Shown here piece after piece: positions 14,346 to 52,511 of a stretch of DNA of 64,000 nt. Source of the DNA: Euryarchaeota archaeon UBA257 (GTDB lineage: Archaea; Thermoplasmatota; Poseidoniia; Poseidoniales; Thalassarchaeaceae). Within the stretch, counting starts at the first letter, position 1; the number at the start of each line of letters is the position of its first letter. The notes beneath the pieces are model-generated. The model was not told the DNA's origin, did not search any database, and saw nothing but the letters and a program-made list of their open reading frames with translations. Location: NCBI GenBank assembly GCA_002498985.1, contig DAJO01000037.1, forward strand, positions 3,356-67,355, written 5' to 3'. A program made the position numbers and the translations under genes.

Positions 14346-17300
14346 TTAATAATTTGGATCTTCAATCCATTCATTAGATTCTTCATCCCAAATCCATCCA
14401 TCAGTAGATTCTTCAACTTTAGAATCCATATTCTCCGTGGAGTCAATAGAAGAGATATCATCATTTTCATCATCACCATCATCTTCAATTTCTACAAAGA
14501 AATATACAAATACAGCCCCTAAGAGAGCCAGGATTACTATTGAAATTATTCCAATCATTAAACTTGACATGCCATCATCTGCAGCCCCTACTGAAATCTG
14601 AACACCACTTGAATAGTCCGAACCAACATATCTGAAATCAGGTGTGACTGGGCCTTCATCGAATCGAGAGGATGGGATATCTAGAGACCATGTAGAGTCA
14701 CTATTTACAACAGTATTATTGGCAGGCACCTTATTAATCAGAGCAGTGACTGTTTTTCCAGGTAATCCTACACCCGAGAATGTTACACTTTCTCCATCTT
14801 TAACAACAGTCACATCAGGAACATCAATTTGGAAACTTATTGGTATTACTGTGAAAGTAACGTCTAATGAAATTTCTTTAGAACCAAATGGATCAGTCGC
14901 TACGAAAATTACATTTTCTAATGTCCATGCATCCATATCGGAGTCGTAGAAGAACATAGAAATTGGATCATAGACAGCGATTCCATCCTGACCTACATTA
15001 ATTACTAATGCGAAATTATCATCGGAAGTTGCTTCAGAATCAAATACAGATAAAATTAGATCCTGTCCATTATCGATCTCTGTGAAGAATTGATTAAGAT
15101 CTATCTCAGCCTTAGTACATCTATCTTGTGATTGGGACTCAATTTCACAGTAAAGAGTTATTTCTTGCATCCAATTTTCTGAATTGAAAACAGGTTGATT
15201 ATTTCCAGCATCTGAAGGGTTATCAGCAATTATTGAAATTGTAGTCATATCACTGTAATCATATCCGTCATATGATCGGACATCAATCTCATATTCGAAG
15301 TCATGTTGTAAAATTGTTGGATCCCAAGTAGTTGACCATGCTCCATTAGTTTCAAAATCAGATACTGATTGTTGGTGAACGATGATATCTCCGTTGAAAA
15401 TATCTCTGACAGTGATATCTACTCTAGAAACAGAGCCATCATTATCTCTTGCAACACCCTCAATCGTATTATCAGAGACTGAAAGCCTTTCGCCATCCAT
15501 AGGTGTCAGTAAACTTACGAAAGGTGCTGAATTAGAATTGTCAATAGTCAATGTCATTGTTACTGGTTCGCATTCATCTATAACACTAAGACAAAAATCT
15601 GAATCTGATGCCCAAATTGTGAATGTGTATTCAGAAACAACTCTTGGTTGACCACTAAAGTCCCATGTCCATGACCAATCAGCACCACCAGTTGTTGGAG
15701 TTGTACCTTCGAAGTTAGGCCCGCTAATATAGAAATAAATTTCCCCTACATCTTGACTACAAGCAATAGGACAACCATATTGATCGTAAGCAGTTCCCTC
15801 GAATGTGACGGTACCATCTGACCAAGTTGAGCCATCGCTTGGAGTACTTACACTAATTACAGGAGGAGCCGCGTTCAACTTAATTGTCCTTGTAATAATT
15901 GGACTGTAATCGATTCCATCAAACGATCTAAACTCAAAAGTATAGTCAGTTTCTTGATACCCAGACATGTCAAATGAAAAATACCAAGAATTGAATGGGT
16001 GATTGAAACGCGTAACAGTCCCAGGTTCAGCCCCACTATCATCAACTGCCAGACCAGCAGAAGTCCATTCACTTGTGAAAGGATCTCTTACTTCTACAGA
16101 ATGGATATATCCTTTTTGATCCCATTGAGCTAATTCATCTGTAGCATAAAATCCTGCTAATTGACCGTCATGCGCAGAACCAGTAAAATTCACGACTTTC
16201 CTGAACGAATGACCTGTTTCTTGAATTACTGATATAGATGGACCTGTATTTACTAAATTTATTACATCTTGATACGTAGTATCTTGAATAATAAAGTCAT
16301 TTCTATCATAACCAAAGCCAAATTTGTATGCAGTGTAATAATAACGAGAAAGTTCCCTAGTTCCTGCACTATAATCACAATCATCATCGTTATTATCAAT
16401 CGTTAAATCACCATCATTGTCTATCCCATCGGAACATGAATCTTCATATTCATCGTCTGCAAAACCATCAGGGTTATCCCCTCCAGCAAGGCCTCGGAAA
16501 TCAAGATGCGAGTCTGATGCTAGTGCAAACCAGGGAGTGTATCCATCTTCATCAGTGTACAGTGAGTAGAGATCATTTCCTAGAGCATCTTCAATTAACA
16601 CATTTGCATTATCTACTTTCATCCCATCTACCAAGGTTTGGAACCTCACCATTTCAGCCCTTCTTACTTGAACTGCAAATTGAGTTGGCTGAGACTTGAT
16701 AAAAATCTTGGAGGTGTCGACATTTGAAAGATTGGCGAATGTAAAGACTGTAGAGTTATTATCCATATTAACTGCCAATGGGAAGTTTCTAGGTGTTAAA
16801 TTATCACAACTAGAACATTCAGAAATTGGTGTTGGAATTATAGCACCCTGGAATCCATTTGCAGGCCAAGCCTCTTGATCGGGCCAGTCTAGTATTACAG
16901 GATACTCACCAGGAGATGCACTTGGAATGAACTCAGATTGAACAGTTACAGAAGATTTAGTAATGTTATAAGCCGTTTCAATACCATTCCAAGTATTCAA
17001 TGAAAAGAAGCCAAGAGAGCCATATTGTTGTGTATTTGCAAATCCGCTATCATAATTTCGGATTACTGCTCCGGTGCCTGGAGTGTTAAACAAATTTCTT
17101 TGGACATCCATCAATCCACCTATTGCTCTGATACCATCGGCATCTCCGCCTAAGCTAAACTCATTGTCATAGAGTGTTACACCTGAACGGAATACACTTA
17201 CTGCAGGGCAGGTATATTCGCCACCCCAGTACTTGAAGCTAGAACAGGTTCCTGGTGAATTCACACTCACTGTATTATTCGTAAAATGAAGCCTGGATGC

Positions 17301-18575
17301 AGCAGGTGCAGGTCCAGAAGTAGATAATTCACCTACTTGAACTGGAGTTCTTGCAGTATCAGTAATTGTATTATATTCGGCAATAACATCAAAGGAACCT
17401 GTCAACCAAAGTCCATTCCAACCACCTATTGGTCCAATCTCATTATTGTGAATATGAGCCTTACTTGATTGTACAGTAATTCCTGAACGATCTGCTACTC
17501 CTGAAATTTGATTATTATGTAATTCAGCATCACCGCCGTCATAAACAGTGATTCCAGAACCCTCATCCGTATTTATTTCATTATTCCCTACTTCAAACGT
17601 ATATGCGACTCCTTGTATCGCTTTGACACCATTGATATCTATTCCATTACAATTCACATTTATGTCAGAGTTAGTAAGAAGACCTGAAGAACTCACAAAC
17701 GCAAATCCATAATCGCCAGTATTTACAGTAGCATCATTAATTTCTATGAATGTTTCTTGAGCCCATAATGTTGGACGGCCACCATCATTATTTCCACAGC
17801 CATTGTCGGTTCCAATAAAGAATGGAGAATTCATCTTAAGAGGAGTGATTTGTGTACCTGAACCATAAATTTGAACCGCTGAACCACCTACTCCACTTTT
17901 CCCATCATTTCCTGCAACATAAGTGCCCCCCTCAAATATTGGTTGAGCAAGATTAGTTGTTAATACACTGCTTGTATTGATATTGCTAAATCTCATTTGA
18001 GTTAAGGTGGGAGATGCTCCATCAATTACCATAGCCCCATATCGCCATCTGTTAATTGAATCAATGTAGTAAGGAATTCCCCAAGCATCATCTATTGTAA
18101 TATGCCTAAAGCCTGTTTCAGATAAATCAATAGAACTTCGAATTAGCACTCCCTCGAAGCAAGAAGCATCTTCAACCTGTATTTCTTGAGTACCTTGTTT
18201 CATACCTTTACACTCTCCAATTTCACTAGCATTGGAAGGATCAGTCCATCGGAAAGTGATTTTATTTGCCAAACTTGCATCGCCGGAGGAACCACAAGAA
18301 CTAGAACCAGCGCATAGATTTCCTCTTACATCAAGATATGTCCCATTTGGGAAAATAACAGTAGTTCCTGGTTGAATAATTAACTTAGCACCGGATGCGA
18401 TTGTAATGTCTCCGGTTAACTGATGAGTTCCTGACCATGTTTCTGAAGTTATAATAGTTCCAGAAGTAGTTTCATTATTAGCCATTACAGGGCTTGCAGG
18501 CCCTACTAGAGCGATTAACACGCTAGATAACATGAGAAATACTAGGAAGGAACTTCTTACTCGGCGCTTGGACAT
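14346..18575 (-). CDS. type-I membrane surface protein (1409 aa) with right-handed beta-helix and Ig-like domains
   Basis: Signal peptide. Pectate-lyase/NosD-like parallel beta-helix repeats (HNNEIGPIGG, YNTITDTART). Downstream beta-sandwich repeats. One C-terminal TM helix followed by an acidic, W-rich tail. Confidence 0.8.
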   Translation of the reverse strand: MSKRRVRSSFLVFLMLSSVLIALVGPASPVMANNETTSGTIITSETWSGTHQLTGDITIASGAKLIIQPGTTVIFPNGTYLDVRGNLCAGSSSCGSSGDASLANKITFRWTDPSNASEIGECKGMKQGTQEIQVEDASCFEGVLIRSSIDLSETGFRHITIDDAWGIPYYIDSINRWRYGAMVIDGASPTLTQMRFSNINTSSVLTTNLAQPIFEGGTYVAGNDGKSGVGGSAVQIYGSGTQITPLKMNSPFFIGTDNGCGNNDGGRPTLWAQETFIEINDATVNTGDYGFAFVSSSGLLTNSDINVNCNGIDINGVKAIQGVAYTFEVGNNEINTDEGSGITVYDGGDAELHNNQISGVADRSGITVQSSKAHIHNNEIGPIGGWNGLWLTGSFDVIAEYNTITDTARTPVQVGELSTSGPAPAASRLHFTNNTVSVNSPGTCSSFKYWGGEYTCPAVSVFRSGVTLYDNEFSLGGDADGIRAIGGLMDVQRNLFNTPGTGAVIRNYDSGFANTQQYGSLGFFSLNTWNGIETAYNITKSSVTVQSEFIPSASPGEYPVILDWPDQEAWPANGFQGAIIPTPISECSSCDNLTPRNFPLAVNMDNNSTVFTFANLSNVDTSKIFIKSQPTQFAVQVRRAEMVRFQTLVDGMKVDNANVLIEDALGNDLYSLYTDEDGYTPWFALASDSHLDFRGLAGGDNPDGFADDEYEDSCSDGIDNDGDLTIDNNDDDCDYSAGTRELSRYYYTAYKFGFGYDRNDFIIQDTTYQDVINLVNTGPSISVIQETGHSFRKVVNFTGSAHDGQLAGFYATDELAQWDQKGYIHSVEVRDPFTSEWTSAGLAVDDSGAEPGTVTRFNHPFNSWYFSFDMSGYQETDYTFEFRSFDGIDYSPIITRTIKLNAAPPVISVSTPSDGSTWSDGTVTFEGTAYDQYGCPIACSQDVGEIYFYISGPNFEGTTPTTGGADWSWTWDFSGQPRVVSEYTFTIWASDSDFCLSVIDECEPVTMTLTIDNSNSAPFVSLLTPMDGERLSVSDNTIEGVARDNDGSVSRVDITVRDIFNGDIIVHQQSVSDFETNGAWSTTWDPTILQHDFEYEIDVRSYDGYDYSDMTTISIIADNPSDAGNNQPVFNSENWMQEITLYCEIESQSQDRCTKAEIDLNQFFTEIDNGQDLILSVFDSEATSDDNFALVINVGQDGIAVYDPISMFFYDSDMDAWTLENVIFVATDPFGSKEISLDVTFTVIPISFQIDVPDVTVVKDGESVTFSGVGLPGKTVTALINKVPANNTVVNSDSTWSLDIPSSRFDEGPVTPDFRYVGSDYSSGVQISVGAADDGMSSLMIGIISIVILALLGAVFVYFFVEIEDDGDDENDDISSIDSTENMDSKVEESTDGWIWDEESNEWIEDPNY

Positions 18576-18673
18576 GTTTTACCGTATTATGTATCATTTA
18601 TCAATGCTAGAGTTACATTTGAGACTAATGTATCAACAAAGCGTATTTGTATCAATTTCAAATATTGGAAAAA

Positions 18674-19912
18674 TTATTCCACATTAAAAGTAAAAGAGAT
18701 TTCCTGAGACCACTTGACTAAGTCCAAAGTGCCATAACCTGAATGGGAATTATGATTAGCAGATTCAAAGTTACTCCTATCGGAAGACCTTGCTAATGCA
18801 TGTTTGACAAGTTTCATTTCATCCTCATCAATATAGCCATCCGAACCTTCAATGGAATCCCCGCATTGTTGAATAATCAATGCCAAAGCTCCTGTAACAA
18901 ATACTGTGGAATCACTCGTCCCAGAAGAGTAAGCATATGGTGATGACAATGTGCTTGAGGCTGTAGAGAAGATATTAACTCCTGGAGCCACAACTTCTGG
19001 TTTTTGATTAGGGAAATCTCTTTCATCTCCTGTTACTGGATCAATCGATGAACCAAAGGCACTGCTACCCCATACATATCCAGATTTAGATATGGCTCCA
19101 ACCGAAATTACTCCCGGAAGGCTGGAAGGTTGAGAAACATCATTTATGTCTAAATCAAGCCCAGTATTTCCTGCGGCTGCTACAACGAAAATCCCTGAAT
19201 CTAATGCTTCTTGAACTGCTAGGTTAGTTTGGGAATCAATATTTGAAGTGAAATCACTAGGAGATCCGCCAAGGCTCAATGAAATAATATCTACTTTCTG
19301 AGTAATTCTACACCACCTAATAGCCTGTGCGACTCGATCGGTTGAACCAGATGTGCCTTCTGAATCCAATGCTAAAGCAACTGACAAACCTACTTCTGGA
19401 GCAACCCCCCTAAAAGTACCATTAGATATCAAGATTCCAGCCATTAATGTCCCATGTGAACTTTCACCGACGTCTCTAACTAACTCATGATTACCCCCTA
19501 CAAAATCTCTGAATCCTAATAATTGTTGATGAGAAAAATCAGGATGACTCATATCAATCCCAGTATCTACAATACAGACATGTACTCCTTGGCCAAAATA
19601 TCCTTCTGATTGTAATTGCCTGATTCCTGTATCTTCGTATGCCCATTCGGAGTCAGGAAGAATTGGTATGAGATATGAGTTAACCCATGGCCAACCAGCA
19701 ATTAACAATAGAGTCAATAAAGAGAAAAAAATAGCACCGGTAGGAGTTTCTGACTTTCTCATGGGACCCAGGGGCCAACGAAGCTGTTTGGCTTCCTCGT
19801 CAGTAAGGCCATAATCATCCCCAGAGTAGCCTAATGCTTGATTATCAATCGTAGTTAGGATACGGTGATCTTCGGGCTCAGGAAGTAAATCAAGATTCTC
19901 TAAAGACCTCAT
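18674..19912 (-). CDS. membrane-anchored subtilisin-like serine protease (peptidase S8)
   Basis: Catalytic triad blocks: Asp (VCIVDTGIDMSHPDF), His (HGTLMAGIL), Ser (SGTSDST). N-terminal TM helix. Confidence 0.85.
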   Translation of the reverse strand: MRSLENLDLLPEPEDHRILTTIDNQALGYSGDDYGLTDEEAKQLRWPLGPMRKSETPTGAIFFSLLTLLLIAGWPWVNSYLIPILPDSEWAYEDTGIRQLQSEGYFGQGVHVCIVDTGIDMSHPDFSHQQLLGFRDFVGGNHELVRDVGESSHGTLMAGILISNGTFRGVAPEVGLSVALALDSEGTSGSTDRVAQAIRWCRITQKVDIISLSLGGSPSDFTSNIDSQTNLAVQEALDSGIFVVAAAGNTGLDLDINDVSQPSSLPGVISVGAISKSGYVWGSSAFGSSIDPVTGDERDFPNQKPEVVAPGVNIFSTASSTLSSPYAYSSGTSDSTVFVTGALALIIQQCGDSIEGSDGYIDEDEMKLVKHALARSSDRSNFESANHNSHSGYGTLDLVKWSQEISFTFNVE

Positions 19913-19990
19913 GAAAAGTTACCACCTAACTTGAGGGTATAGATTCAGTATAAGAATCCCTGTTCCTAAAGCCCGCTAATCATCTCAATA

Positions 19991-22900
19991 TCAGAAAGGT
20001 GCGCCTGGACGGCGGCCAGAACGACCTTTGGTCAAATAAAGGCCGATTATCACTAATCCAATAATTAGGATATAAGCAATAATGTCTGTATTTTCATCAT
20101 CATCAACACTTGGTGACCTGACATCTACATTCATGACTCCCTGCTCTACACCATCACTAATGTGCCACGAGCCATCATCAATATTTTCTTCATCAAATCC
20201 AGTTGAGTTTATATCAAGCATGATATAATATTGATCAACTTGAATATCAGATAAATCAAACAAGAAACTGAACTGAGTAGATGATTCAGCAGATATATCC
20301 ATTGTCGTCGTAGCATTGACAGAAGTTGGAGAATTACAATCTACATCCCTACAAAGTTGAGCATTAAGTTGCACATTTTCAGCATCAACTAATCCACTAT
20401 TAGATATTGTAGCGATATATGTTATTTGGCCACCAGCTTCTGGTTCTCCGCCTCCCAATGCTTGAATTCCTTCAATCTTCAATACAGGTTCAGAACTTCG
20501 GACCTTAATTTCAATAGTATCGTATGAGTTTCCGGCTTTATCTGTCACTGAAACATAAATTAAGAACTCTTCATTCGGCATTGCGTCGCTTGGGGAAACA
20601 ACAGTCACACTATGAGAAGTACTGACGAAACTACCGATTGTGTGTGAAGTTGGACCTGTCCTACTCCAACCATCGGGCAATTCTGAATCGTCAAACTCAA
20701 ACTCATATTTTTCATCGCCATTTCCAGCATTTGTAAACTCTATTGGTATAGTAATTAATTCTCCTGGAGAGACTCCGTATACTTCAGACATAGGATTAGT
20801 AAGTTCGAAACCATGTATTTGAGGGACTCTGACTATCAAATCATGTGAAGCCAGATAACCATCTAGAGTTGAAATACTAATCGTAATCTTATGTCCGTCT
20901 TCGAAAGAATGTGCTACAGATTGATTAGGTGCGATTACACGGATATTCAAATTATCGAAATCAACGCTGTTGTCTAAACCTACTTCAAATTGCGTTGAAG
21001 TTGTCCAGTTTCCTGTACCGTTATGGAATTGAACTGTCCATTCAGAACTATCAGTTCCAGAAACAATACCTCCAACGGTAAATACATCATATGATTCATG
21101 ACCGAGGTAATCTACAGCGAGAGTGAAATCTACTGGGAAAAATCCATTTATTCCATCAACTTCTAATGAAACATCACCCAATGATCCAACATAATTTTCG
21201 TGACCTGAGGTTTCATTCAGTGTAGTAATTTCAATTTCGTGATTTGAAACTCTATTGAATAATAGGTCGATAGTTGTATTGAGACCTGGATAGACATCAA
21301 AGCCTCTTCCTGCAGTAAACTCCATGGTTAATCCTCTTTGCTCTACTTCAAAGTCGCCAGAAAATTGAACATTACCATTAGGAAGTAAAAGATTAAGATT
21401 TCCGGTTTCATCCACGCTTTGTATCCATTTCATTCCGAATCCAACATCGACTAATAAATTCGCATCTGAAATGTCTCCTAGATTACGTGAGTTACCGTCA
21501 TAATCTAACCATTCTGTTTGAACCTCAAGAATACCTCCACTAGTTAGTTCCATATCTAAATTATTTGAATTACCAGTAACATCAACATCCAATAGACCCA
21601 TTATTATCAAGTCCTGACTCGGTACGCTAGCACTTACTATCCATAGACCTGGTTCCAGTTCCGTAGACCAGCTTCCAGACCAATCATCATTGATTTCAAT
21701 TGCTACTGTATCTCTAACTAGACCCTCAGTAGGCATTATCATTAATTCGATATCTTCGACAGGAATACTGGAAATACCAAGTGCATAGGTAATATTTCCA
21801 TAAACATCAACTAGACCTGCAACTAATTCCAATTGCACATCATTAGGAGAGTCTGAAACAGATATACTTTCATTAATGCTTTCAAACCCATCATAAATAG
21901 TTTCAATTTGCCAGCTTGTATTGTATGGTACAAATAATTCCCATTCTCCTGTATTGTCCGTTGAAATTGAATGTTCGTTTGAATCAGATGTAGTTGTAAA
22001 CATCATCTGAACATCAGAAATTCCTTCACCTACATTAGAAGCATTGTTGTTATTCAAATCCCAGAAAACTGTTCCAGTTAAAGCAACATAAAGATTTGCA
22101 GTTAAATCAACATGATTTTCTCCCACTGAAATAGTAACGGGATAACTTTCTACAACCCATCTCTTTCCATCTTCAGTGTAGTTAAGAGAAATTAACCAAT
22201 CTCCCTCTACTACATCAACAGTAGTTAATCCACTGCTATTTGTCGCCTCGATACTGAAAGAACCTAGGTCACTTGCAGACTCCATTAACAAACTAACTCC
22301 TGACAAAGGAGAGCTAGTAGAATCTTCTGATACATTGAATGAAATCTCTGCGAGTTGACTAGTAGAGAATGTTAAACTTTCAGAAGTGATGTCAGATGAT
22401 ACTGAAATCAAATCTCTTAACCCTTCTTTAATATCATTATTTACTATCTCTGTAGTAGCAATCCAATCACCCTGAGGGAAGAAATCAATAATACTTCCAT
22501 TAGAATCGGTAGTTCGAGAAAGAACCCAGCCATTTTCAACATTAGTGAATCTAACTAATTGTTCAGACAAATCACCACCACTTTCATTGGTAAATGACAT
22601 TTCTACTCTCCATTCAGGATCAAATCCAATACTTCTTGTAATATCTGTTGAGTCAATTCCTACTCTGACATCAACATCTCCACTCATTATTCTAGTTCCG
22701 AATAAATCTCCGGAGTTAGGATCAGCAATATCTACAGATATCCTGTAAATTCCTGCCTCTACTGTGACTTGGGCAATCCCTTCGTCAGTCCAATCACTTG
22801 AAGTGGAATTGATATGGTAGTCAATTCCATCAACTAAAGATAGTAAACTGAAATCATAAGTTACTGGAGTACCGTTAGACATATTATTATCTGCAGAATT

Positions 22901-33482: not shown

Positions 33483-33483
33483 A

Positions 33484-37044: not shown

Positions 37045-37095
37045 TACAGTTGACTCCAAGATATGATATAATGTTTCATTACTGATGTGCTGAGA

Positions 37096-38190: not shown

Positions 38191-38194
38191 ATTA

Positions 38195-39430: not shown

Positions 39431-39442
39431 ACGGATAGAGTG

Positions 39443-42313: not shown

Positions 42314-42393
42314 CTCATGTACAACCTTACATGACTCGGAATAGTTAAACTAACTTTAATACAATTGTTGAAAGACCTGTCCGACCTATTGAA

Positions 42394-44382: not shown

Positions 44383-44433
44383 GATAATGCGAACACGGTA
44401 GTTCTCTTGAACTATTAGGTCATAGGAGTATCA

Positions 44434-45231: not shown

Positions 45232-45324
45232 CCCAATCCCATCTAAGGAATTTCTTCCTCAAAAGCAATTAGGTCACTAAATAGCCTATAAAGACAACAG
45301 TAAGAAATTACATGAAGATAGGGA

Positions 45325-45354
45325 TTAGTTGGGGTTTGAATTTGCCCCAACTAA
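45325..45354 (-). terminator. perfect 10-bp stem-loop overlapping the stop codon of the 2386-aa gene
   Basis: ttagttgggg-N10-ccccaactaa. On the minus strand it is followed by a pyrimidine/T-rich tract (TCCCTATCTTCATGTAATTTCTT). The stop codon TAG (45351-45353) lies in the 3' arm. Confidence 0.5.
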
Positions 45355-48300
45355 TCTTCTTCTTCGTATTCCCAATCGTCTTCTTCGTATTCTTCTTCAT
45401 CATCATCGTAGTAATAATCTTCATCGCCACGACTGCGCATTACAAGTATTGCAACAAGAGCTACAGCGATAACTGCAACACCAATAACCATGTAAAGGCC
45501 AGTGTTTGATTCCGCTTCTACGGGTAATGGTTGAACATTAATACCAGATAAGTCAATATTATTTCCATTATCATTATTCCAGTCCATCTCACCTGTTTCA
45601 GGATCTTCCATAATCAATACCAATAGAGGTTGACCCTCAGACCAAGACTCCCATTGGAATTGTGCATTGACGCTCGAAGACTGCGCACCTAGAATAATTT
45701 CAGTAGGGCCATCGGATAAGGTAGTTAGCGCCGGCGACCATTGTCCACTTTCTGGATTTAACTCGTATAAACCAACTGTGATAGAGCCTTCTCTCTTACC
45801 ATCATTTTCCCAGAATGTTTGCAGAGTTAACATCTCTCCAACCATTGGAGTAGAGGTTGGATTGATGACTACTCTAGTATATTCTGGATTAAACTTCATT
45901 ATTCTAAGAGTAGGCATTCTTGGTGCAGATTCACTACCTAGGCCAGTGACAACATTTCCTGCTCTATCGGTTGAAGTGACCCAGAAAGCAATCTGGTCGC
46001 CTTGTTCAATTGACATACCATTTAGTGGTGTAAAGTCAATATAGCCTTGATAAACATCTTTTGACTCTCCATCATCAATCATAGTTAGTTGTCCAGTATT
46101 CTCTGATCCAGCCACTGCAGTACCCGACCTTAGAATCACCCAAGCGACATCAAGAGGTCCTTCGATCATACCAATTTCATCGACCATCGTTACTGTGATT
46201 AGTACATCATTGATTAAATCCGATTCTAACAAAACTAATGATGAATCAGGATATGTTGATTGATCAAATAGTACCGTTGGAGCTTTACTGTCAACAGTCA
46301 CAGAAGCATCTGAATTAATATCTGATGAACCACCACCTGGGACATTCAAAACTTCTGTTGAAACAGACATAGTTGGATTAAGAGGGACTCTTGAAGGCAA
46401 AATCATTGAACCATCGAAACTAGCATCTTCATTTACTGATGTGACCATCTTAATTTCTTGTGTTCCATAAACTACTTCGAATTCAACTTCAAGATTTGCT
46501 GGAATATTTGCTGCTAATGCACCTGAACCAGAATGATAAACAAATCCACTCATTCGGAATTCATCCCCCTGTCCCAAGTACACCGAAACTCCTTGAGATT
46601 CTGCCTGAGGAGGAGTAAGATCTTCTATATTATCAGGGATTGCTACATACTTGTTATCAAGATACCAAGATAATTCTCCAATGTTATTCTGGTACGCTAC
46701 AGTAGTGAAATCATCAAGTATTGATACGCTAGGCTTACAAGAGTTCTGATTATTCTCCCAAGGGAAGTCCCAAGAGACTTCGAATATCATTGAAAGTTGA
46801 GTAATATCTGAAGAAACTTGCATCGTCTGCACAGAAAGTGGTGTCACGAAACTAGTTGCATCTGACCAAATAGTTCCTCTCGAAGGATCGTAGCTCATCT
46901 TTCCAAGTTCACTTATCCCATCTCCACATAGCATTATCGATATATTATCCAATGTATTTAGCCCATTGGCTTCTTCAATTTGCATAGTAAATGTATGTTG
47001 TTCACCAGGCAGTAAATACCCTAAATCACGGTCCAGTGAATAACCTGTAGACTTAATGCTGGTTGGCTCATCAGTTGCTACAACGACAGTTGCCCAAGAG
47101 TTAGATGCTCCAGGTCCTCCACCTGTACCTCCCTCTTGGTAACTCAGACCTGCCCAATCAGTACCTTCAACATACATATGGACTGGAGAATTAAAAGTTT
47201 GTTGAGAAACATCAATACCTACAAAATTAACTTGTTGCTGACCTGTCATACCAGGTGTTAATGGCTGTACCATTGACAAGTATTCGTCTTCATCAGCGAT
47301 ACCATCTCCATTGACATCATCTACTGAACCTCGCCAATATCTGAGTGTCAAAATTTCACCTCTAGCCTCAGATTCTTCGACTGTTACGAAAAGAGATAAT
47401 GGGTCCATTGGTTCCCAAACTTTACCATGAGCTGCTTTCAAACCAGATGGGGTGTTTACTTCAAGTGGCCCTGCTACAGGAGGTTCATGATCAACTCGAA
47501 CATTTACAGATGGCGGAGTTCCAGTTACATCCTCTGCCCCAAGTGAATAACCAGTAGGGCCTACTGTATTCATCATAGGTGACAGATAAACGTTAGAGAG
47601 ACCTGTTGGAGATGAAATTAGGCCAGTATATTTCCCGCCTTCTTCAGAAGTCAAAAGATAACTTAGACCGGAAATATTCAAACCAACAGTGAAATCAACC
47701 GCTTGCGGTCTAACTGCAATAGAGTCTTGGAACTTGACGGTGCCTGTGATATTTAATTCACTACCATCAGTCATCGTAAACGGATAGAATGTAGAATACT
47801 GATTTGATAGAAGCCTTCCAAATTGATCTCTGACTTCGAATGAATCAATCATCAAATCATTTTCAACCGCATTCTTTCCAGATTCACCACTATGAGATAC
47901 TGACGGCCATACTGATTCTCCTGAGGCATCGAATGCCTGAGATATCCAACGTATTGAATTAACATCATCCCACATCCAGCTAACATCAAACATCCAGTGT
48001 ATAGTGACATCATCATAGCCATCATTATGAGTTGTAATCTCTAAGAATGTTGAAGGATTCATTGGAGCAACTGATGAACCAGAAATTTGCGTAAAGGATA
48101 CCGCATCTGAACCTTGGCCCCACAAGCCATCTGCACTATTAGTAACCTCAAACATCAAAATCTCCCCATCAGAAGCGATTCCTCTGAGAGAAATCTTATC
48201 TAAATTAGAATTATCAATTAAGTGATGGTGTTGAGTAATTATTTCAACTGTCTCACCATTAGGATAAAGTGTATTTGGAACCACGAAATCTCTGTTGGTG

Positions 48301-51300
48301 ACTATATAATCGAACTTTAAGTCACCATCGATGGAAACTGATCCCTTATCTGCAGTAATATTTACTGGAATTGATACCTGAGTAGGCGGAGGATCATCTT
48401 GAGTCATAGAATCGTGATAATCAGATATTGATGTACCTAAACCTGAAACATTTTCAAATATCAAATAGCCTATTCCAATTGTTGAAATAGATACCGTTTG
48501 TGCATAATTTGACTCTAAAGTAATGGTGACATCTCGCCATTCCCTTCCTGTGTCAGTGTCTGTGTGAGATGTAGTTAGAGAGTTTATTCCTGCAATTTGA
48601 CTGTAATCTAATATGCAATGGAATATCTCTGAAGCAGAAGAACTCGTCTGACTGGATGACCCTACTGTCAAGGTAACCGGTGACTCGAATTGACCATCGG
48701 AATCAGGTGCAACTGAGATTATTCCATTATTGACCGCAGCCAGAGAGGGTAATCTCACCATTATTGAAGATGGAGTTCCAGAATCTAAGCTTATACTTGT
48801 ACCAGTTGTATGAGAATCAATACCATCTGAAACAAGCGATTGCCATCCATAATGACCGTAATCTGTACCCATTGGGAATGACCAATCTACTGAACCATCA
48901 TTAAGCATATCAACTGCAGGATTTTCTGCTGGCTCAACGAAATTGGATGAGATAACCATTCTATCAATCCAGCCATTAGTCGGTAGGGACACTGATAGAG
49001 AGAAACCTGTTTGAGGGATAGCAAAGGGTATTGATCCCTGAGAGGTTTGTCCTAATGTTGCACCAGTGAATGAATATGCAGTCACCATTAGACCACTAGA
49101 AAAGTTACCTGATAGTGTCACGCTCTTGATTGGCCTAGATGAATGGATATAATCGGAAGTAATTGTACCGGCAATAGTTGTAGCATTCAGTAATTCATCT
49201 ACTACCTCGATGCTCGGGCTGAAAGACCATCCATTATAATCTGCACTTGATGACGCAAGATATCTCTTACCACCAATACTTATTTTGGTTAATTTAGGAG
49301 AAACTTCTTCGTCACTTGTATCCATTAGAACCTTAATTCTAACTAGTTCATATTCTTCAGAATCAACTCCTGCCAAAGAGAATGGGAAGGTAACATTGTT
49401 GTAACCTGGCACAATATTATCGCTCATGTCGACTAAGCTACCTGTAATTGAAGTATTATCGGGAATTGTTGCCTCAATATCTACCCAGCCATAATTGAAA
49501 GTGTCAATATCACTCATGTCTACAGCATTACTCAACCAGTACCCACCAGCTCCATAATTAGCAATTAGGATACCAAAATTATCAATGTAGGCACCCTGAT
49601 AAGTTACTGAAGTATCTGTAGATAGACGGAATCTAAATCTTAACTCGTCACCAGCATAACTAGATAGAGGTGCCTGTCTATTTTCAAACTCTTGTTGATT
49701 ACAATCTCCATTCATCCACGCATCATGGCCATACATCTGATTACCAGAATATCCGGGTGAACCATCATACCAACCAGGAATTTGAGGGTCGAAATAATTC
49801 CAAGAACCACCATTAACCTGTATTTGAAGACCAACTGCATCCCAACTATTTTCTGTACATATCCACTTATCAAATGTCACGTATGCTAAGCCATCGTTCG
49901 GAATATCATATGTTGGAGATGTTAACAATGAGTTCTGATTATTTGCATAGTTACCATTTAAATTTGTACCATATACGTAAGGGAACGAAGGTTCATCACT
50001 AGGCCCTGCACTCATACCCAATTGACCATAGTTCCATGCAGATTGTTTTGACCAACCCGGAGCGTTATTGGTGGAAGGGTTTCCAGCAGTAGAATCTTCA
50101 AATCCATATACTTCGCTTAAAATTCCTCCAGTAAGAATGTAGTAATTCCAATCATCATATCCCAGTTGTGTGTTACCACCATAAGTATAGTACTCTTGAT
50201 AATGAGTCATCGTAGTCGGACTTTCTAAATCGTCTCTGAATAATACAGTGCCTGTATCGTCAACAACGCGAATATCTTCAAGTGTAAATCCTTCTTGTGA
50301 ATCACCAGGATAAGTACCTCCATAATGTGTGTAAGCGTCCGTATCTACTACGAAACGAATGTAAACATTAGCCTGATTTTGATAAGCGGAAGGAATATCA
50401 TATTCTACAGTCCTGATTCCGTTACTTTGGTCACCATATACTCCATCATATGAAGGATAACCAGGGATTGCACCACTACGATCTTCACAATCACTTGTTG
50501 TAGAGGAAATGGAGGAAGAAATATCATACCATGTTACATTGTTCAATGAAATCTCAATACAAGCATTATCACTAGTAGAGCCCTGTAAATCCCATTCCAT
50601 ATCTATTTCAATTGATGAAGTTGAATTAGTGCCGGTTAAATCAATTGTTCTTTGAAGTGCCCCCGCTGAATGTGCCACATAGTTGCAATACGTACCTGTT
50701 GTAGAAATACATCCATGGTGCCAAACACCAAAATCAACACCATCATTATTGAAATCAATGTTATCCAAGAACCATCCAGGCCTCTCATAAGATGCGTTAG
50801 GAGAAGTCCAAATATGGAATCTAAATTGAATTTTAGAAGCATTGTCAATATCTGGAATTGAAGATATACTTATGTTCTCACTTAGCCATCCACTGTGAGT
50901 TGCAGAAGCAAAAACTGGAACTGCTACACTTTCGGGAGCACCGTTGGGTGAAGGAGCATCTGTAGACATAGTGCTAGGATATCCTCCATCTGGAGCAATA
51001 TAGGTCCAGTCATTCCAACTACCAGTATTTATTCTATATTCAATCCATGTTCCATCTCCTCCACCTGAAGTAGTACTGTCCAAGTGATACCAATGGTCAA
51101 AAGTCATGTAAAGTCCATTGTAAGTATCTGAATCAGGTAAATCAACTTGAGGTAATAAGAAAGAGCTGCTTGTACCACGTGGAACTGCTGAGCCAGGCAT
51201 TGTACCTACTGCTACAATTCCCTCTGTTGCAGATGATGGAATTGTTCCATAAGACATTGTTTGTTCATTACCAAGATTCGTCCCATTGTGGTTAAATGTT

Positions 51301-52511
51301 GTAGCACCCCACATTTCTTGAATGTTACAGAGATAATTTGTATCTGAAATTTCGTTTGCATCTAAAATGGAATCTTCATCAGTATCCATTCCTGCATTTA
51401 CCATGTAACCTCCTAACATACATTGAGATGTAGAACCTGTACTAATCGATGTAACTGTAATCTCATAATCGAAAAATCCTCCTAAACCTGCACTAATTGA
51501 TGCTGAAGTACCGCTTGAACTAGGCACTATTGTAGGTGCACTAGTGTAGCCATTACCTCCGCTAGTAACAGACGCCTCGTAAATTGAACCAGTAGTTTCC
51601 AGCACGCTAGAAAGTTGAGCACCAGTGCCATTACTACTAGATACCAGAACATACATTGTTTGTTGTGAGATATAGCCAGATCCGCCATTACTCAGTGCTA
51701 TCGAGGTTATATTGCCATTACTGTCAACACCACCTACTGATGCGACAGCACCTGTCCCAGTACATCCACCAGGACATACGAAAGCTAGTGAATCTCCAAT
51801 CGCATATCCAGTTCCGTTATTGGAGATAGTTATACTATCGATTGCACTACTAATTGAATAAGTCCCTGAGAAGCCGCTGCCTGAACCTCCAGTTGCAGAT
51901 AATGTTCCAGCAGTGTATCCACTACCTCCACTAGTGACATTTAATGTTGTAACACTATCTTCTAATGCATTACCACTGCAATACATCAAAGTTTCAGTTG
52001 TTTCTCCAGGCGACAGAGACCCATCAAAATTATTGTCGTATCCATGGTCCACCCATGCACCTGAAAGGTTGTTACATTCTACCACTGATGTTGAAGAAGA
52101 AACCGAATAAACATGTTCCCATCCTGGAGAATAAGTGTAAATGTCATTCATTGATACATCGATATCACCTTCATCGAAAGTGCTAATATTTGACCGAGAA
52201 CCATCGTCAAGTAAAGTGATTTGTTCAATGTCTTCAACGAAATTAGTTCCAAAAAATCTACCAGAATCTAAATCTGCACCTTCCCAAACAATACCAGGAT
52301 CCATGGATGTTGCTGTTTCAGTGTTAGTTATGTGAAGCCAACCATCCTGAACTGTAGCATTTCCGGGGACTCGGAAACCAGTCAGAGTAATGCCCTCCTC
52401 GGGAGGATTTACTGAGCTTGGTCCTGTCCAAGAAGTTGTAGCAGCGGATGTTAGCGGGGCAATTATCATCAATAACACTAGAGCAAGTGCAGTCCTACGG
52501 CGGTCAGACAT
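45351..52511 (-). CDS. giant type-I membrane surface protein (2386 aa)
   Basis: Signal peptide. GSGY(T/I)-type repeats and many beta-sandwich repeats. One C-terminal TM helix followed by an extremely acidic/aromatic tail (DEDYYYDDDEEEYEEDDWEYEEED). Confidence 0.8.
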   Translation of the reverse strand: MSDRRRTALALVLLMIIAPLTSAATTSWTGPSSVNPPEEGITLTGFRVPGNATVQDGWLHITNTETATSMDPGIVWEGADLDSGRFFGTNFVEDIEQITLLDDGSRSNISTFDEGDIDVSMNDIYTYSPGWEHVYSVSSSTSVVECNNLSGAWVDHGYDNNFDGSLSPGETTETLMYCSGNALEDSVTTLNVTSGGSGYTAGTLSATGGSGSGFSGTYSISSAIDSITISNNGTGYAIGDSLAFVCPGGCTGTGAVASVGGVDSNGNITSIALSNGGSGYISQQTMYVLVSSSNGTGAQLSSVLETTGSIYEASVTSGGNGYTSAPTIVPSSSGTSASISAGLGGFFDYEITVTSISTGSTSQCMLGGYMVNAGMDTDEDSILDANEISDTNYLCNIQEMWGATTFNHNGTNLGNEQTMSYGTIPSSATEGIVAVGTMPGSAVPRGTSSSFLLPQVDLPDSDTYNGLYMTFDHWYHLDSTTSGGGDGTWIEYRINTGSWNDWTYIAPDGGYPSTMSTDAPSPNGAPESVAVPVFASATHSGWLSENISISSIPDIDNASKIQFRFHIWTSPNASYERPGWFLDNIDFNNDGVDFGVWHHGCISTTGTYCNYVAHSAGALQRTIDLTGTNSTSSIEIDMEWDLQGSTSDNACIEISLNNVTWYDISSSISSTTSDCEDRSGAIPGYPSYDGVYGDQSNGIRTVEYDIPSAYQNQANVYIRFVVDTDAYTHYGGTYPGDSQEGFTLEDIRVVDDTGTVLFRDDLESPTTMTHYQEYYTYGGNTQLGYDDWNYYILTGGILSEVYGFEDSTAGNPSTNNAPGWSKQSAWNYGQLGMSAGPSDEPSFPYVYGTNLNGNYANNQNSLLTSPTYDIPNDGLAYVTFDKWICTENSWDAVGLQIQVNGGSWNYFDPQIPGWYDGSPGYSGNQMYGHDAWMNGDCNQQEFENRQAPLSSYAGDELRFRFRLSTDTSVTYQGAYIDNFGILIANYGAGGYWLSNAVDMSDIDTFNYGWVDIEATIPDNTSITGSLVDMSDNIVPGYNNVTFPFSLAGVDSEEYELVRIKVLMDTSDEEVSPKLTKISIGGKRYLASSSADYNGWSFSPSIEVVDELLNATTIAGTITSDYIHSSRPIKSVTLSGNFSSGLMVTAYSFTGATLGQTSQGSIPFAIPQTGFSLSVSLPTNGWIDRMVISSNFVEPAENPAVDMLNDGSVDWSFPMGTDYGHYGWQSLVSDGIDSHTTGTSISLDSGTPSSIMVRLPSLAAVNNGIISVAPDSDGQFESPVTLTVGSSSQTSSSASEIFHCILDYSQIAGINSLTTSHTDTDTGREWRDVTITLESNYAQTVSISTIGIGYLIFENVSGLGTSISDYHDSMTQDDPPPTQVSIPVNITADKGSVSIDGDLKFDYIVTNRDFVVPNTLYPNGETVEIITQHHHLIDNSNLDKISLRGIASDGEILMFEVTNSADGLWGQGSDAVSFTQISGSSVAPMNPSTFLEITTHNDGYDDVTIHWMFDVSWMWDDVNSIRWISQAFDASGESVWPSVSHSGESGKNAVENDLMIDSFEVRDQFGRLLSNQYSTFYPFTMTDGSELNITGTVKFQDSIAVRPQAVDFTVGLNISGLSYLLTSEEGGKYTGLISSPTGLSNVYLSPMMNTVGPTGYSLGAEDVTGTPPSVNVRVDHEPPVAGPLEVNTPSGLKAAHGKVWEPMDPLSLFVTVEESEARGEILTLRYWRGSVDDVNGDGIADEDEYLSMVQPLTPGMTGQQQVNFVGIDVSQQTFNSPVHMYVEGTDWAGLSYQEGGTGGGPGASNSWATVVVATDEPTSIKSTGYSLDRDLGYLLPGEQHTFTMQIEEANGLNTLDNISIMLCGDGISELGKMSYDPSRGTIWSDATSFVTPLSVQTMQVSSDITQLSMIFEVSWDFPWENNQNSCKPSVSILDDFTTVAYQNNIGELSWYLDNKYVAIPDNIEDLTPPQAESQGVSVYLGQGDEFRMSGFVYHSGSGALAANIPANLEVEFEVVYGTQEIKMVTSVNEDASFDGSMILPSRVPLNPTMSVSTEVLNVPGGGSSDINSDASVTVDSKAPTVLFDQSTYPDSSLVLLESDLINDVLITVTMVDEIGMIEGPLDVAWVILRSGTAVAGSENTGQLTMIDDGESKDVYQGYIDFTPLNGMSIEQGDQIAFWVTSTDRAGNVVTGLGSESAPRMPTLRIMKFNPEYTRVVINPTSTPMVGEMLTLQTFWENDGKREGSITVGLYELNPESGQWSPALTTLSDGPTEIILGAQSSSVNAQFQWESWSEGQPLLVLIMEDPETGEMDWNNDNGNNIDLSGINVQPLPVEAESNTGLYMVIGVAVIAVALVAILVMRSRGDEDYYYDDDEEEYEEDDWEYEEED

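What the first reader, a model, noticed from the sequence alone, without database searches (positions are those of the whole stretch)
14346..52511. Shared C-terminal module: single TM helix plus extremely acidic, aromatic tail on several giant surface proteins
Three proteins end the same way: the 1409-aa beta-helix protein (..FFVEIEDDGDDENDD...WIWDEESNEWIEDPNY), the 2386-aa protein (..RSRGDEDYYYDDDEEEYEEDDWEYEEED), and the 588-aa protein. Each ends with one hydrophobic helix followed by a poly-acidic tail rich in Trp/Tyr. No PGF-CTERM/archaeosortase-type motif is present. The recurrent tail may be a sorting, anchoring or cytoskeleton-docking signal specific to this lineage.
Basis: seen in the sequence. 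Interest (0 to 1): 0.55.

Follow-up and report, generated by a model that had tools for sequence, protein, structure and literature searches.

The report
Conserved tryptophan-hairpin tail on archaeal surface proteins
Two of the three proteins do end in unusually acidic, aromatic cytoplasmic tails, and one tail carries a previously undescribed tryptophan-rich end-piece that marine Group II archaea attach to several unrelated surface proteins, probably as a handle for a partner inside the cell.

Summary
The window comes from a Marine Group II archaeon (Poseidoniales, Thalassarchaeaceae).

- **1409-aa and 2386-aa proteins:** both have a signal peptide, a C-terminal TM helix and an extremely acidic, aromatic tail. 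None of about 18,000 equal-length segments of the window's own proteins is as acidic.
- **588-aa protein:** its tail is ordinary (net -4, no Trp).
- **The two acidic tails are not homologous.** The 2386-aa family keeps a Tyr/Trp-acidic tail (RGxDDYYYDDDE..DDWEYE).
- **Motif B:** the 1409-aa family ends in a conserved element, hPGW[LI]WDx4[EQ]W[VI]xDP[DN][YF]. AlphaFold predicts a beta-hairpin at the end of a disordered linker.
- **Motif B is portable and lineage-specific.** 118 of 119 genome hits are MGII-type. It always lies a few residues from the stop codon and 20-65 aa after a TM helix. It occurs on at least four unrelated type I proteins: the beta-helix protein, a 1500-aa subtilase, a ~370-aa CGGSCH protein, and one ortholog of the 2386-aa protein. 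A few further carriers are seen only as fragments.
- **No known C-terminal sorting model or Pfam family matches.**
- **Conserved neighbour:** the gene directly downstream of the main carrier encodes an HTH-STAND-TPR ATPase in 96 of 96 testable genomes.

Most likely motif B is a cytoplasmic docking handle. The TPR protein is the leading candidate partner, but this is unproven.

The parts
14346..18575 (-). Gene for the 1409-aa type I surface protein (right-handed beta-helix plus Big_7 Ig domains). It is the main, universal carrier of motif B in Poseidoniales.
   Evidence: ORF. Pfam Beta_helix and Big_7. All 119 full-length orthologs (44-100% identity) keep the TM helix, tail and motif.
18480..18575 (-). 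N-terminal signal peptide (MSKRRVRSSFLVFLMLSSVLIALVGPASPVMA), which places the body of the protein outside the cell.
   Evidence: Hydropathy and sequence. The cleavage site is inferred, not tested.
14493..14561 (-). C-terminal transmembrane helix (residues 1339-1361). It ends in the family-conserved acidic juxtamembrane FFVE[IF]E.
   Evidence: Kyte-Doolittle maximum 3.0. AlphaFold helix pLDDT 94-98. Coordinates. Conservation of FFVExE.
14403..14492 (-). Variable, strongly acidic, predicted-disordered cytoplasmic linker (residues 1362-1391).
   Evidence: pLDDT 46-61. Column conservation 0.42 against a protein mean of 0.605. Length 4-64 aa and net charge 0 to -17 among orthologs.
14349..14402 (-). 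Motif B, DGWIWDEESNEWIEDPNY. This is the window's version of hPGW[LI]WDx4[EQ]W[VI]xDP[DN][YFH], a predicted Trp-rich beta-hairpin at the extreme C-terminus.
   Evidence: G, W, W and W are invariant in 52 diverse sequences. Strands at fragment residues 90-93 and 98-101; the 10-residue block covering fragment residues 91-100 averages pLDDT 91. The 18-aa window ranks 25 of 1392 in conservation across MGIIa plus MGIIb. Found on unrelated proteins.
11749..14277 (-). Gene for an 842-aa cytoplasmic HTH-NOD(AAA)-TPR STAND ATPase, starting 68 bp after the stop codon of the 1409-aa gene. It is the invariant downstream neighbour and the candidate partner or regulator.
   Evidence: Pfam AAA_16, ATPase_2, TPR_12 and weak HTH hits. 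Closest solved relative is 6mfv, the PH0952 TPR-sensor STAND (E 2e-26). Directly downstream on the same strand, with a 7-100 bp gap, in 96 of 96 testable loci.
45351..52511 (-). Gene for the 2386-aa type I surface protein (DUF7151 plus an InhA-like MAM domain).
   Evidence: All 68 MGII orthologs have a TM helix plus an acidic Tyr-rich tail.
45438..45497 (-). C-terminal transmembrane helix of the 2386-aa protein (residues 2339-2358).
   Evidence: Kyte-Doolittle maximum 3.03. Coordinates.
45354..45437 (-). Motif A tail, RSRGDEDYYYDDDEEEYEEDDWEYEEED: a basic stop-transfer RxRG followed by a Tyr/Trp-acidic run.
   Evidence: Family consensus R(G/S)RGxD(D/E)YYYDD(D/E)..YY..DD(S)WEYE, net -7 to -45. 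Not homologous to motif B. Orthologs P0175 and L078 carry motif A followed by motif B.
33339..33479 (+). TM helix and tail of the 588-aa protein. Examined and excluded: the tail is mildly acidic, lacks Trp and has its own motif.
18674..29497 (-). Upstream members of the conserved gene array: a membrane-anchored S8 subtilase (18674-19912) and a giant AglB/STT3 oligosaccharyltransferase (19991-29497).
   Evidence: Pfam. The S8 gene lies directly upstream on the same strand in 25 of 25 loci with room. AglB C-terminal hits in 18 loci.

Best explanation
**Shown**
- The 1409-aa and 2386-aa proteins are type I membrane proteins. Their C-terminal tails lie in the cytoplasm.
- The two tails are different devices.
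- The tail of the 1409-aa protein is a flexible, mostly acidic linker ending in a conserved ~20-27-aa tryptophan-rich element, motif B: hPGW[LI]WDx4[EQ]W[VI]xDP[DN][YF].
- Motif B is portable and specific to Poseidoniales. It sits at the extreme C-terminus of at least four unrelated surface proteins, often two or more per genome.

**Predicted**
- Motif B folds as a small beta-hairpin resembling a Trp zipper.

**Inferred**
- The hairpin is a docking handle, held 20-65 residues below the membrane. Through it, different ectoproteins engage one common cytoplasmic partner.
- The leading candidate partner is the HTH-NOD-TPR STAND ATPase encoded immediately downstream of the main carrier in every genome that could be tested. 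Its TPR sensor would bind the Trp-acidic peptide. This would couple the state or amount of envelope proteins to transcription, or tether the regulator at the membrane.
- The tail of the 2386-aa protein is a family-specific Tyr/Trp-acidic tail. It may serve the same kind of docking, because one lineage has fused motif B onto it.

**Sub-probabilities**
- Motif B is a real, selected, portable cytoplasmic module: about 0.9.
- It works by docking a cytoplasmic partner: about 0.55.
- That partner is the neighbouring STAND-TPR protein: about 0.25.
For: **Conservation**
- All 119 full-length orthologs of the 1409-aa protein keep the TM helix, tail and motif B.
- G, W, W and W are invariant in 52 diverse tails.
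- Motif B forms a conserved island (0.785; rank 25 of 1392 windows) between a variable linker (0.42) and the TM helix (0.52).

**Structure prediction**
- AlphaFold with a 44-sequence alignment gives a TM helix (pLDDT 94-98), a disordered linker (46-61) and two beta strands across motif B. The block covering residues 91-100 of the fragment averages pLDDT 91.

**Portability and lineage specificity**
118 are MGII-type.
- In these loci the motif lies 2-11 aa from the stop codon (one case at 34 aa) and 20-65 aa after a TM helix.
- Carriers are unrelated in their ectodomains: the beta-helix/Big_7 family, a Peptidase_S8+P_proprotein+CARDB protein of about 1500 aa, a ~370-aa protein with a CGGSCH motif, and an ortholog of the 2386-aa protein. 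The profile search adds further carriers known only from fragments, including TSP3-like ones.
- Six genomes, one of them a single-cell genome, carry two carrier classes.

**Cytoplasmic location**
- Every complete carrier has a signal peptide plus one C-terminal TM helix.
- Classes 2 and 3 have basic residues right after the TM helix.
- P0434 carries the motif at its N-terminus, before a multi-TM body.

**Not a default property of MGII anchors**
- Other C-terminal anchors in the same loci have short basic tails.

**Candidate partner**
- The STAND-TPR gene starts 7-100 bp downstream on the same strand in 96 of 96 loci with room, in both families.
- Its closest solved relative is the TPR-sensor STAND PH0952 (PMC6468293).
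- TPR domains are known to read W-acidic and Y-acidic peptides (PMC6214655).
- STAND regulators can be held by membrane or other partners (MalT; PMC10427625).
Against: - No binding, localisation or expression data exist. These organisms are uncultured.
- The STAND gene neighbours only the main carrier, not the subtilase, the CGGSCH protein or the 2386-aa family. The synteny may therefore only mean that it regulates that operon.
- The TPR region is not basic overall (net -11), so there is no simple charge complementarity.
- A fused TPR-tail model could not be run.
- In a set rich in MGIIb sequences, motif B is only averagely conserved relative to the ectodomain (rank 585 of 1392).
- Motif A could not be shown to be portable. 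The metagenome pattern scan was unspecific.
Confidence: 0.55

Rival explanations
1. The tails are compositional accidents: low-complexity acidic ends in an organism with a very acidic proteome, with no specific function.
For: - The window's proteome is acidic (D+E 14.7% against K+R 7.0%), and the surface giants carry net charges of -136 to -289.
- The 588-aa tail is indeed ordinary.
- A DYYYDD-type pattern is common in unrelated metagenomic sequences.
Against: - None of about 18,000 segments of the window's proteins is as acidic as either tail.
- Both tails are kept in every ortholog down to 41-44% identity, with position-specific motifs and invariant Trp or Tyr residues.
- Motif B recurs at the same position on unrelated proteins.
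- Other C-terminal anchors in the same loci have short basic tails.
Confidence: 0.04
2. Motif B is a C-terminal sorting or processing signal. A dedicated membrane or cytoplasmic machine would recognise it to target, cleave, lipid-modify or quality-control surface proteins, as archaeosortase, exosortase or rhombosortase signals are recognised. The tail would then be removed or be only transiently needed.
For: - It sits at the extreme C-terminus, next to a TM helix, only on secreted or anchored proteins, is lineage-restricted, and marks several cargo families per genome. This distribution is typical of sorting signals.
- A membrane-anchored S8 protease is encoded directly upstream in 25 of 25 loci.
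Against: - Known sorting signals place the recognition motif on the outer side of the TM helix and end in a short basic cluster. Here the motif is 20-65 aa beyond the helix, on the cytoplasmic side, and is acidic.
- No NCBIfam CTERM model matches.
- No sortase-like gene was found among the window proteins scanned against Pfam.
- The literature search found no paper that mentions both Marine Group II and archaeosortase.
Confidence: 0.15
3. Motif B needs no protein partner. The Trp-rich hairpin either inserts into the inner-leaflet interface or self-associates in Trp-zipper fashion. Either way it would cluster or register surface proteins, for example an S-layer lattice, from the cytoplasmic side.
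For: - Three invariant Trp residues lie on a predicted hairpin.
- Trp prefers membrane interfaces (general knowledge).
- Tandem copies of motif-B-like hairpins occur in other proteins: P0398, P0474 and the Chloroflexota locus L038. This suggests a self-contained structural unit.
- The main carrier is a universal, AglB-linked, possibly S-layer-type protein.
Against: - The motif and its flanks are strongly acidic, which disfavours binding to anionic archaeal membranes.
- The linker is long and of variable length (4-64 aa), which is a poor fit for a fixed membrane-proximal role.
- The conserved non-aromatic positions (hPG, D, DP[DN][YF]) look like a recognition surface.
Confidence: 0.15
4. The STAND-TPR neighbour is simply the transcription factor of the AglB-S8-surface protein array and never touches the tail. 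Motif B docks to a different, unlinked partner such as the cytoskeleton, the division machinery or a chaperone.
For: - Regulators are commonly encoded next to their targets.
- Classes 2, 3 and 4 of motif-B carriers have no STAND neighbour.
- The TPR region has no net basic charge.
Against: - Adjacency was found in 96 of 96 testable genomes, with gaps of 7-100 bp, across two families whose proteins are only about 40-55% identical. That is unusually strict for a mere regulator-target pair.
- TPR sensors are peptide readers (PMC6214655, PMC6468293).
Confidence: 0.3

Closest known systems
Tripartite C-terminal sorting signals of prokaryotic surface proteins (PGF-CTERM/archaeosortase A, PEP-CTERM/exosortase, GlyGly-CTERM/rhombosortase, LPXTG/sortase)
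   Same: A C-terminal element next to a single TM helix, found only on secreted surface proteins, lineage-restricted, and marking several unrelated cargo families in one genome.
   Different: - Those signals have a short signature on the outer side of the helix and end in a few basic residues. They are removed by a cognate sortase.
- Here nothing is conserved before the helix. The conserved element lies 20-65 aa after it, on the cytoplasmic side.
- It is acidic and Trp-rich, and is predicted to fold.
- No model matches and no sortase is known for this lineage.
W-acidic and Y-acidic short linear motifs read by the TPR domain of kinesin light chain (PMC6214655)
   Same: Trp or Tyr embedded in acidic residues within a disordered cytoplasmic tail. 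A TPR protein is genetically linked to the main carrier. The window holds one Trp-type tail and one Tyr/Trp-type tail.
   Different: - That system is eukaryotic and unrelated by descent.
- KLC motifs are extended peptides of about 10 aa (L/M-x-W-D/E), not a three-Trp hairpin.
- Binding to the MGII TPR is untested.
Cytoplasmic tails of apicomplexan TRAP/MIC2-family adhesins (PMC3448169)
   Same: Type I surface adhesins with short, acidic cytoplasmic tails. In TRAP, a subterminal Trp plus acidic residues is needed to connect to a cytoplasmic bridging protein.
   Different: Those tails carry a single Trp, have no hairpin, and occur in eukaryotes with actomyosin gliding machinery. There is no evidence of motility coupling in MGII.
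STAND ATPases with TPR sensors (PH0952, PDB 6mfv; MalT; AfsR)
   Same: The 842-aa neighbour has the NOD/AAA core (E 2e-26 to 6mfv), a C-terminal TPR array and an N-terminal HTH-like region. In this class the sensor repeats bind the inducer, and MalT is held inactive by partner proteins (PMC6468293, PMC10427625).
   Different: Known inducers are small molecules or are unknown. No STAND has been shown to read the tail of a membrane protein. The link proposed here rests only on invariant synteny.
Trp-zipper hairpins and the helicase-associated (HA, PF03457) 'PGWxW' repeat end
   Same: A W-x-W ... W pattern across a tight turn. HA repeats end in hPGW[VS]W[DNS], which produced weak multi-repeat profile hits.
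   Different: Trp zippers are designed peptides. The HA domain is helical and cytosolic, and only its last 6-7 residues resemble motif B. No Pfam family covers motif B.

Membership tests
PGF-CTERM / archaeosortase-type sorting signal | Conserved signature (PGF, PEF, VPXXXP and similar) immediately N-terminal to the TM helix | tested here: not met
   The sequences before the helices (..AADDGMSSLM....AESNTGLYM....DESFNMIP..) carry no such motif. NCBIfam CTERM/LPXTG models score at most 12.7 bits against cut-offs of 16-47.
PGF-CTERM / archaeosortase-type sorting signal | Short, basic cluster as the very C-terminus after the helix | tested here: not met
   The tails are 48 aa (net -20) and 28 aa (net -16). 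Only the AglB protein in the window ends in this way (KGRSGRRPGAPF).
PGF-CTERM / archaeosortase-type sorting signal | Cognate archaeosortase or exosortase gene in the genome | not testable with these tools
   Only 64 kb of the genome is available. Pfam scans of 19 of the window's ORFs, including the large surface and membrane proteins, found none. No paper mentions both MGII and archaeosortase.
KLC-type W-acidic / Y-acidic TPR-binding SLiM | Trp or Tyr flanked by acidic residues in an intrinsically disordered cytoplasmic segment | tested here: met
   The tail sequences and the low-pLDDT linker. However, motif B itself is predicted to fold rather than remain an extended peptide.
KLC-type W-acidic / Y-acidic TPR-binding SLiM | Direct binding in the concave groove of a TPR domain | not testable with these tools
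Only invariant synteny with a TPR protein is shown.
TRAP/MIC2-like adhesin tail | Type I adhesin with an acidic cytoplasmic tail and a functionally required subterminal Trp | tested here: inconclusive
   The architecture and invariant Trp residues are present. Functional requirement and a bridging partner are unknown. There is no homology.
STAND NTPase with TPR sensor (for the 842-aa neighbour) | P-loop NOD core followed by C-terminal TPR sensor repeats | tested here: met
   Pfam AAA_16 (5e-9), ATPase_2 and TPR_12 (3e-16, 5 stretches). 6mfv PH0952 E 2e-26 over residues 170-492.
STAND NTPase with TPR sensor (for the 842-aa neighbour) | Effector domain: DNA-binding HTH | tested here: inconclusive
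   The hits to HTH_Crp_2 (22 bits) and MarR_2 (18 bits) at the N-terminus are both below Pfam cut-offs.
Any described protein domain covering motif B | Significant match of the tail to a Pfam or NCBIfam model | tested here: not met
   Pfam at E up to 10 gave only Kelch_2 (E 0.32), DUF6724 (0.016) and Syndecan (0.13), all below cut-offs. NCBIfam gave nothing relevant.

The most novel reading that the evidence does not exclude
Poseidoniales may possess an envelope-to-genome signalling device of a kind not described in prokaryotes. Several unrelated surface proteins (an S-layer-like beta-helix protein, a subtilase, a heme-motif protein and a MAM giant) would display the same cytoplasmic Trp-hairpin ligand. 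The TPR sensor of a STAND transcription ATPase, encoded next to the main carrier, would read it. The cell could then count or sense its surface proteins, or hold the regulator at the membrane. This would parallel eukaryotic TPR readers of W-/Y-acidic cargo motifs.
Probability: 0.2. Interest if true: 0.8.

Novelty: new variant of a known kind. Interest (0 to 1): 0.6.

Why it matters
Marine Group II archaea are the most abundant archaea in the surface ocean. They are uncultured, and almost nothing is known about their cell envelope.

A conserved cytoplasmic handle shared by their major surface proteins gives three things:
- a sequence signature for recognising their envelope proteome in metagenomes;
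- a concrete peptide-partner hypothesis (Trp hairpin and STAND-TPR) that can be tested in vitro without a culture;
- a possible prokaryotic example of short-motif docking on the tails of type I membrane proteins, a principle best known from eukaryotes.

The invariant array AglB, S8 protease, beta-helix protein and STAND also nominates a candidate S-layer glycoprotein locus for this group.

Tried and rejected
- **Pfam and NCBIfam scans of the tails at E up to 10.** No family and no known CTERM sorting model matched.
- **Homology between the two acidic tails.** Rejected: hhalign aligns only TM columns.
- **The 588-aa protein as a third member.** Rejected on composition statistics and on its orthologs' own motif.
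- **Acidity as the defining feature.** Rejected: the linkers of subtilase carriers can be neutral or basic, and MGIIa linkers are rich in Q, A and P.
- **Motif B as the most conserved part of the protein.** Not true in an MGIIb-heavy set (rank 585 of 1392). It is in the top 2% only across both families.
- **Simple charge complementarity of the TPR domain.** Not found (net -11).
- **Metagenome scan for [DE]DYYY[DE]D[DE], to test whether motif A is portable.** The pattern was unspecific. The MGII hits were 2386-family orthologs plus one unclear small ORF, L229.
- **Multi-repeat profile hits.** These turned out to be the Pfam HA domain, which resembles motif B only in 'PGWxW'.
- **Literature searches.** No description of these tails was found.
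Full report
**Source and gene content.** The window has about 38% G+C. Hits to its proteins are named Candidatus Poseidoniales or Thalassarchaeaceae, that is Marine Group II (MGIIb) archaea. The finding spans three ORFs:
- a 1409-aa protein (14346-18575, minus strand; Beta_helix plus Big_7);
- a 2386-aa protein (45351-52511, minus strand; DUF7151 plus an InhA-like MAM domain);
- a 588-aa protein (31716-33482, plus strand; no Pfam domain).

**Checking the observation.** All three proteins have an N-terminal signal-type segment and a single strong hydrophobic helix near the C-terminus.
- The 1409-aa tail is 48 aa long, has net charge -20 and ends DGWIWDEESNEWIEDPNY.
- The 2386-aa tail is RSRGDEDYYYDDDEEEYEEDDWEYEEED (net -16).
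- Among all equal-length segments of the window's 32 ORFs, none is as acidic (0 of 17,835 and 0 of 18,475). In other MGII ORFs the frequency is about 1.6e-4.
- The 588-aa tail (net -4, no Trp) is matched or exceeded by 29% of segments. Its orthologs conserve an unrelated motif, TAEIL[DE]NYNK.

So two of the three examples hold. The other giants in the window do not fit. AglB ends in a TM helix plus the basic tail KGRSGRRPGAPF, and the TSP3 proteins have no C-terminal helix. Other C-terminal anchors in related MGII loci also have short basic tails. The acidic tails are therefore special rather than the default.

**The two acidic tails are different things.**
- All 68 MGII orthologs of the 2386-aa protein keep a TM helix, R(G/S)RG and a Tyr-rich acidic run: D(D/E)YYYDD(D/E)..YY..DD(S)WEYE, net -7 to -45. 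I call this motif A.
- All 119 full-length orthologs of the 1409-aa protein keep the helix and a variable tail. Each tail ends in one sharply conserved element, hPGW[LI]WDx4[EQ]W[VI]xDP[DN][YFH]. I call this motif B.
- In 52 diverse motif-B tails, G, W, W and W are invariant.
- Many orthologs also carry DPYAWAK, and the acidic juxtamembrane FFVE[FI]E.
- Profile-profile comparison of the two tail alignments aligns only 14 columns inside the TM helix.

**Motif B is a portable, lineage-specific module.**
- One ortholog of the 2386-aa protein (P0175) ends ..YYDDDYEDEEDEHPGWLWDSDSNEWVPDPDYQG, that is motif A followed by motif B.
- L078 is the positional ortholog of the window's 2386-aa gene, with the same AlaRS-sized, RtcB-sized and small flanking genes, and it carries the same fusion.
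- I searched a degenerate DNA pattern for G-W-h-W-D-x5-W-x2-D-P over one genome for each of 185,579 species.
- 118 of these are MGII-type. Three sit in bins labelled as bacteria but have MGII gene content. One Chloroflexota hit is a different Trp repeat.
- In every MGII locus the motif is 2-11 aa from the stop codon (once 34 aa) and 20-65 aa after a TM helix.

The carriers fall into unrelated families:
1. the beta-helix family, in both MGIIa and MGIIb;
2. a ~1500-aa Peptidase_S8+P_proprotein+CARDB protein with a basic juxtamembrane region;
3. a ~370-aa signal-peptide protein with a CGGSCH motif;
4. the 2386-family ortholog.

A profile of motif B was searched against 1.84 billion representative proteins and gave 115 hits at E<1e-3. 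Apart from the repeat proteins described next, almost all are C-terminal tails of this type. They include TSP3-like and CARDB-like fragments, and one protein (P0434) with the motif at the N-terminus before a multi-TM body. The multi-repeat hits are the Pfam HA domain, whose repeats end in 'PGWxW'. I treat that as a resemblance only. Six genomes, including a single-cell genome, carry two carrier classes. No Pfam or NCBIfam model covers the motif.

**Anatomy.**
- AlphaFold, run on the last 105 residues with a 44-sequence alignment, gives a TM helix (pLDDT 94-98) and a disordered linker (46-61).
- It places two beta strands across motif B, WIWD and EWIE. The 10-residue block covering fragment residues 91-100 averages pLDDT 91.
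- Motif B is thus predicted to be a hairpin resembling a Trp zipper.
- Across 40 species representatives of both MGII families, motif B is a conserved island (0.785; rank 25 of 1392 windows). The linker scores 0.42 and the TM helix 0.52.
- In an MGIIb-heavy set it is only averagely conserved, so it is not the most conserved part of the protein.
- Linker length (4-64 aa) and charge vary. Median net charge is -9 for class 1, -3.5 (range +3 to -11) for the subtilases, and -12 for class 3. Acidity is common but is not the invariant feature.

**Topology.** Every complete carrier has a signal peptide and one C-terminal helix. Classes 2 and 3 also have Lys/Arg right after the helix. The tail is therefore cytoplasmic by both criteria. 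This is inferred and has not been tested experimentally.

**Genomic context.**
- In 96 of 98 class-1 loci, the gene for an 842-aa cytoplasmic protein starts 7-100 bp after the stop codon on the same strand. This holds in both MGIIa and MGIIb. The other two loci have less than 110 bp of sequence left.
- In the window this gene is 11749-14277 (minus strand), 68 bp downstream.
- The protein has weak N-terminal HTH hits, an AAA_16/ATPase_2 NOD core and five TPR_12 stretches.
- Its closest solved relative is the TPR-sensor STAND PH0952 (6mfv, E 2e-26; PMC6468293). NCBIfam gives weak AfsR and MalT matches.
- Upstream, a membrane-anchored S8 subtilase is adjacent in 25 of 25 loci with room. The C-terminus of a giant AglB is seen in 18 loci.
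- The array AglB, S8, beta-helix protein and STAND is thus a fixed feature of the order.
- The other carrier classes have no STAND neighbour.

**Mechanism.**
- *Shown:* motif B is a selected, portable, lineage-specific element at the cytoplasmic C-terminus of several unrelated type I surface proteins.
- *Predicted:* it folds as a small beta-hairpin.
- *Inferred:* it is a docking handle for one shared cytoplasmic partner.
- *Best candidate:* the neighbouring STAND-TPR protein. TPR sensors are peptide and ligand readers. Kinesin light chain TPRs read exactly W-acidic and Y-acidic motifs (PMC6214655). STAND regulators such as MalT are controlled by sequestration (PMC10427625).
- *Closest functional analogy for the tail:* the acidic, Trp-dependent tail of apicomplexan TRAP-family adhesins (PMC3448169).

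Against the specific partner: the synteny could simply reflect regulator-target linkage, the TPR region is not basic, and a complex model could not be computed.

The rivals are a sorting or processing signal, a partner-free membrane-interface or self-association element, and a different partner. Pure compositional chance is effectively excluded for the two acidic tails.

**Comparison with known systems.** This is not a PGF-CTERM, PEP-CTERM or LPXTG-type signal. Nothing is conserved before the helix, the C-terminus is not basic, and no model matches. It is not a member of any described domain family. It resembles eukaryotic short-motif docking on receptor tails in logic only. I found no description of it in the searchable literature on MGII.

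**Verdict.** The real recurrent module is the Trp hairpin, present once in this window. The Tyr-acidic tail is a second device specific to its own family. The third tail is ordinary. I rate novelty as a new variant of a known kind (C-terminal signals or docking motifs of surface proteins) and interest at 0.6.

Noticed in passing
window 11749-29497 (minus strand): The array giant AglB/STT3 (3168 aa), membrane-anchored S8 subtilase (412 aa), 1409-aa beta-helix protein and STAND-TPR is conserved in both MGII families. The universal, AglB-linked, C-terminally anchored 1409-aa protein may be the S-layer glycoprotein of this uncultured group.
   Followed up: partly
window 19991-29497 (minus strand): The AglB/STT3 homolog is 3168 aa long. 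It has about 13 or more N-terminal TM segments, a ~2300-aa extracellular extension (weak CarboxypepD_reg and DUF11 hits) and a second C-terminal TM anchor with a basic tail. This is far larger than typical archaeal AglB.
   Followed up: no
window 5034-10754 and 33969-37016 (minus strand): Two TSP3-repeat proteins (1906 aa and 1015 aa) are extremely acidic overall (net -270 and -185). They have an N-terminal hydrophobic segment but no C-terminal anchor. In other genomes, TSP3-like fragments do carry a TM helix plus motif B (P0448).
   Followed up: partly
L046:2646-3800 (also L011, L035, L049, L052, L080, L090, L104, L110): The small (~370 aa) motif-B carrier has a conserved ANPGGxGDxxRD[YF]TCGGSCHGDP segment after its signal peptide, a possible CX3CH heme-type site. 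It is always followed by a ~200-aa multi-TM protein. Neither has a Pfam match. This may be an extracytoplasmic redox pair.
   Followed up: partly
P0398, P0474; L038:~1841-1884: Proteins outside MGII carry tandem copies of motif-B-like units. P0398 (3466 aa) has six or more copies of QYPGW[MR]WDxxxGQW[VL]P. P0474 has three copies at its N-terminus. A Chloroflexota protein ends GWLWDDASQTWYWDPDHKVWGYD. The hairpin may be a more widespread, undescribed mini-repeat.
   Followed up: no
P0410, P0447, P0449, P0452, P0454, P0456, P0471: Repeats of the Pfam helicase-associated (HA, PF03457) domain end in RLE(S/A)hPGW(V/S)W(D/N/S). This resembles the start of extended motif B (L-E-K/R-x-D-D-H-P-G-W-L-W-D). 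It is probably a chance or convergent resemblance.
   Followed up: partly
L067, L111, L113: Contigs in MAGs labelled Verrucomicrobiales, Salipiger bermudensis and Rhodobiaceae carry the MGII beta-helix protein plus STAND pair. These look like binning contamination in public genomes.
   Followed up: partly
MGIIa loci, e.g. L001:4595-5068, L005:1318-1788, L027:883-1353: A conserved ~156-aa protein with one N-terminal hydrophobic helix (..FTFLLGVLLLSMFSVWAWDIETATRERWNE..) lies near the STAND gene in MGIIa loci. No homolog was detected in this MGIIb window. Its function is unknown, and it may be pilin-like.
   Followed up: no
window 52991-55488 (plus strand): A 376-aa multi-TM protein with a Cys-rich, zinc-ribbon-like C-terminus (no Pfam match) overlaps by 7 nt the start of a second membrane-anchored S8 subtilase (457 aa). 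Both lie just upstream, on the opposite strand, of the 2386-aa gene.
   Followed up: no
L229 (metagenome contig Ga0233414_10000004): A small ORF encodes a TM helix followed by KNKGNDDYYYDDDEPAVERV..DDEEDHEEDEE. It looks like a minimal motif-A-type tail on a different, tiny protein. Its organism is unclear.
   Followed up: partly
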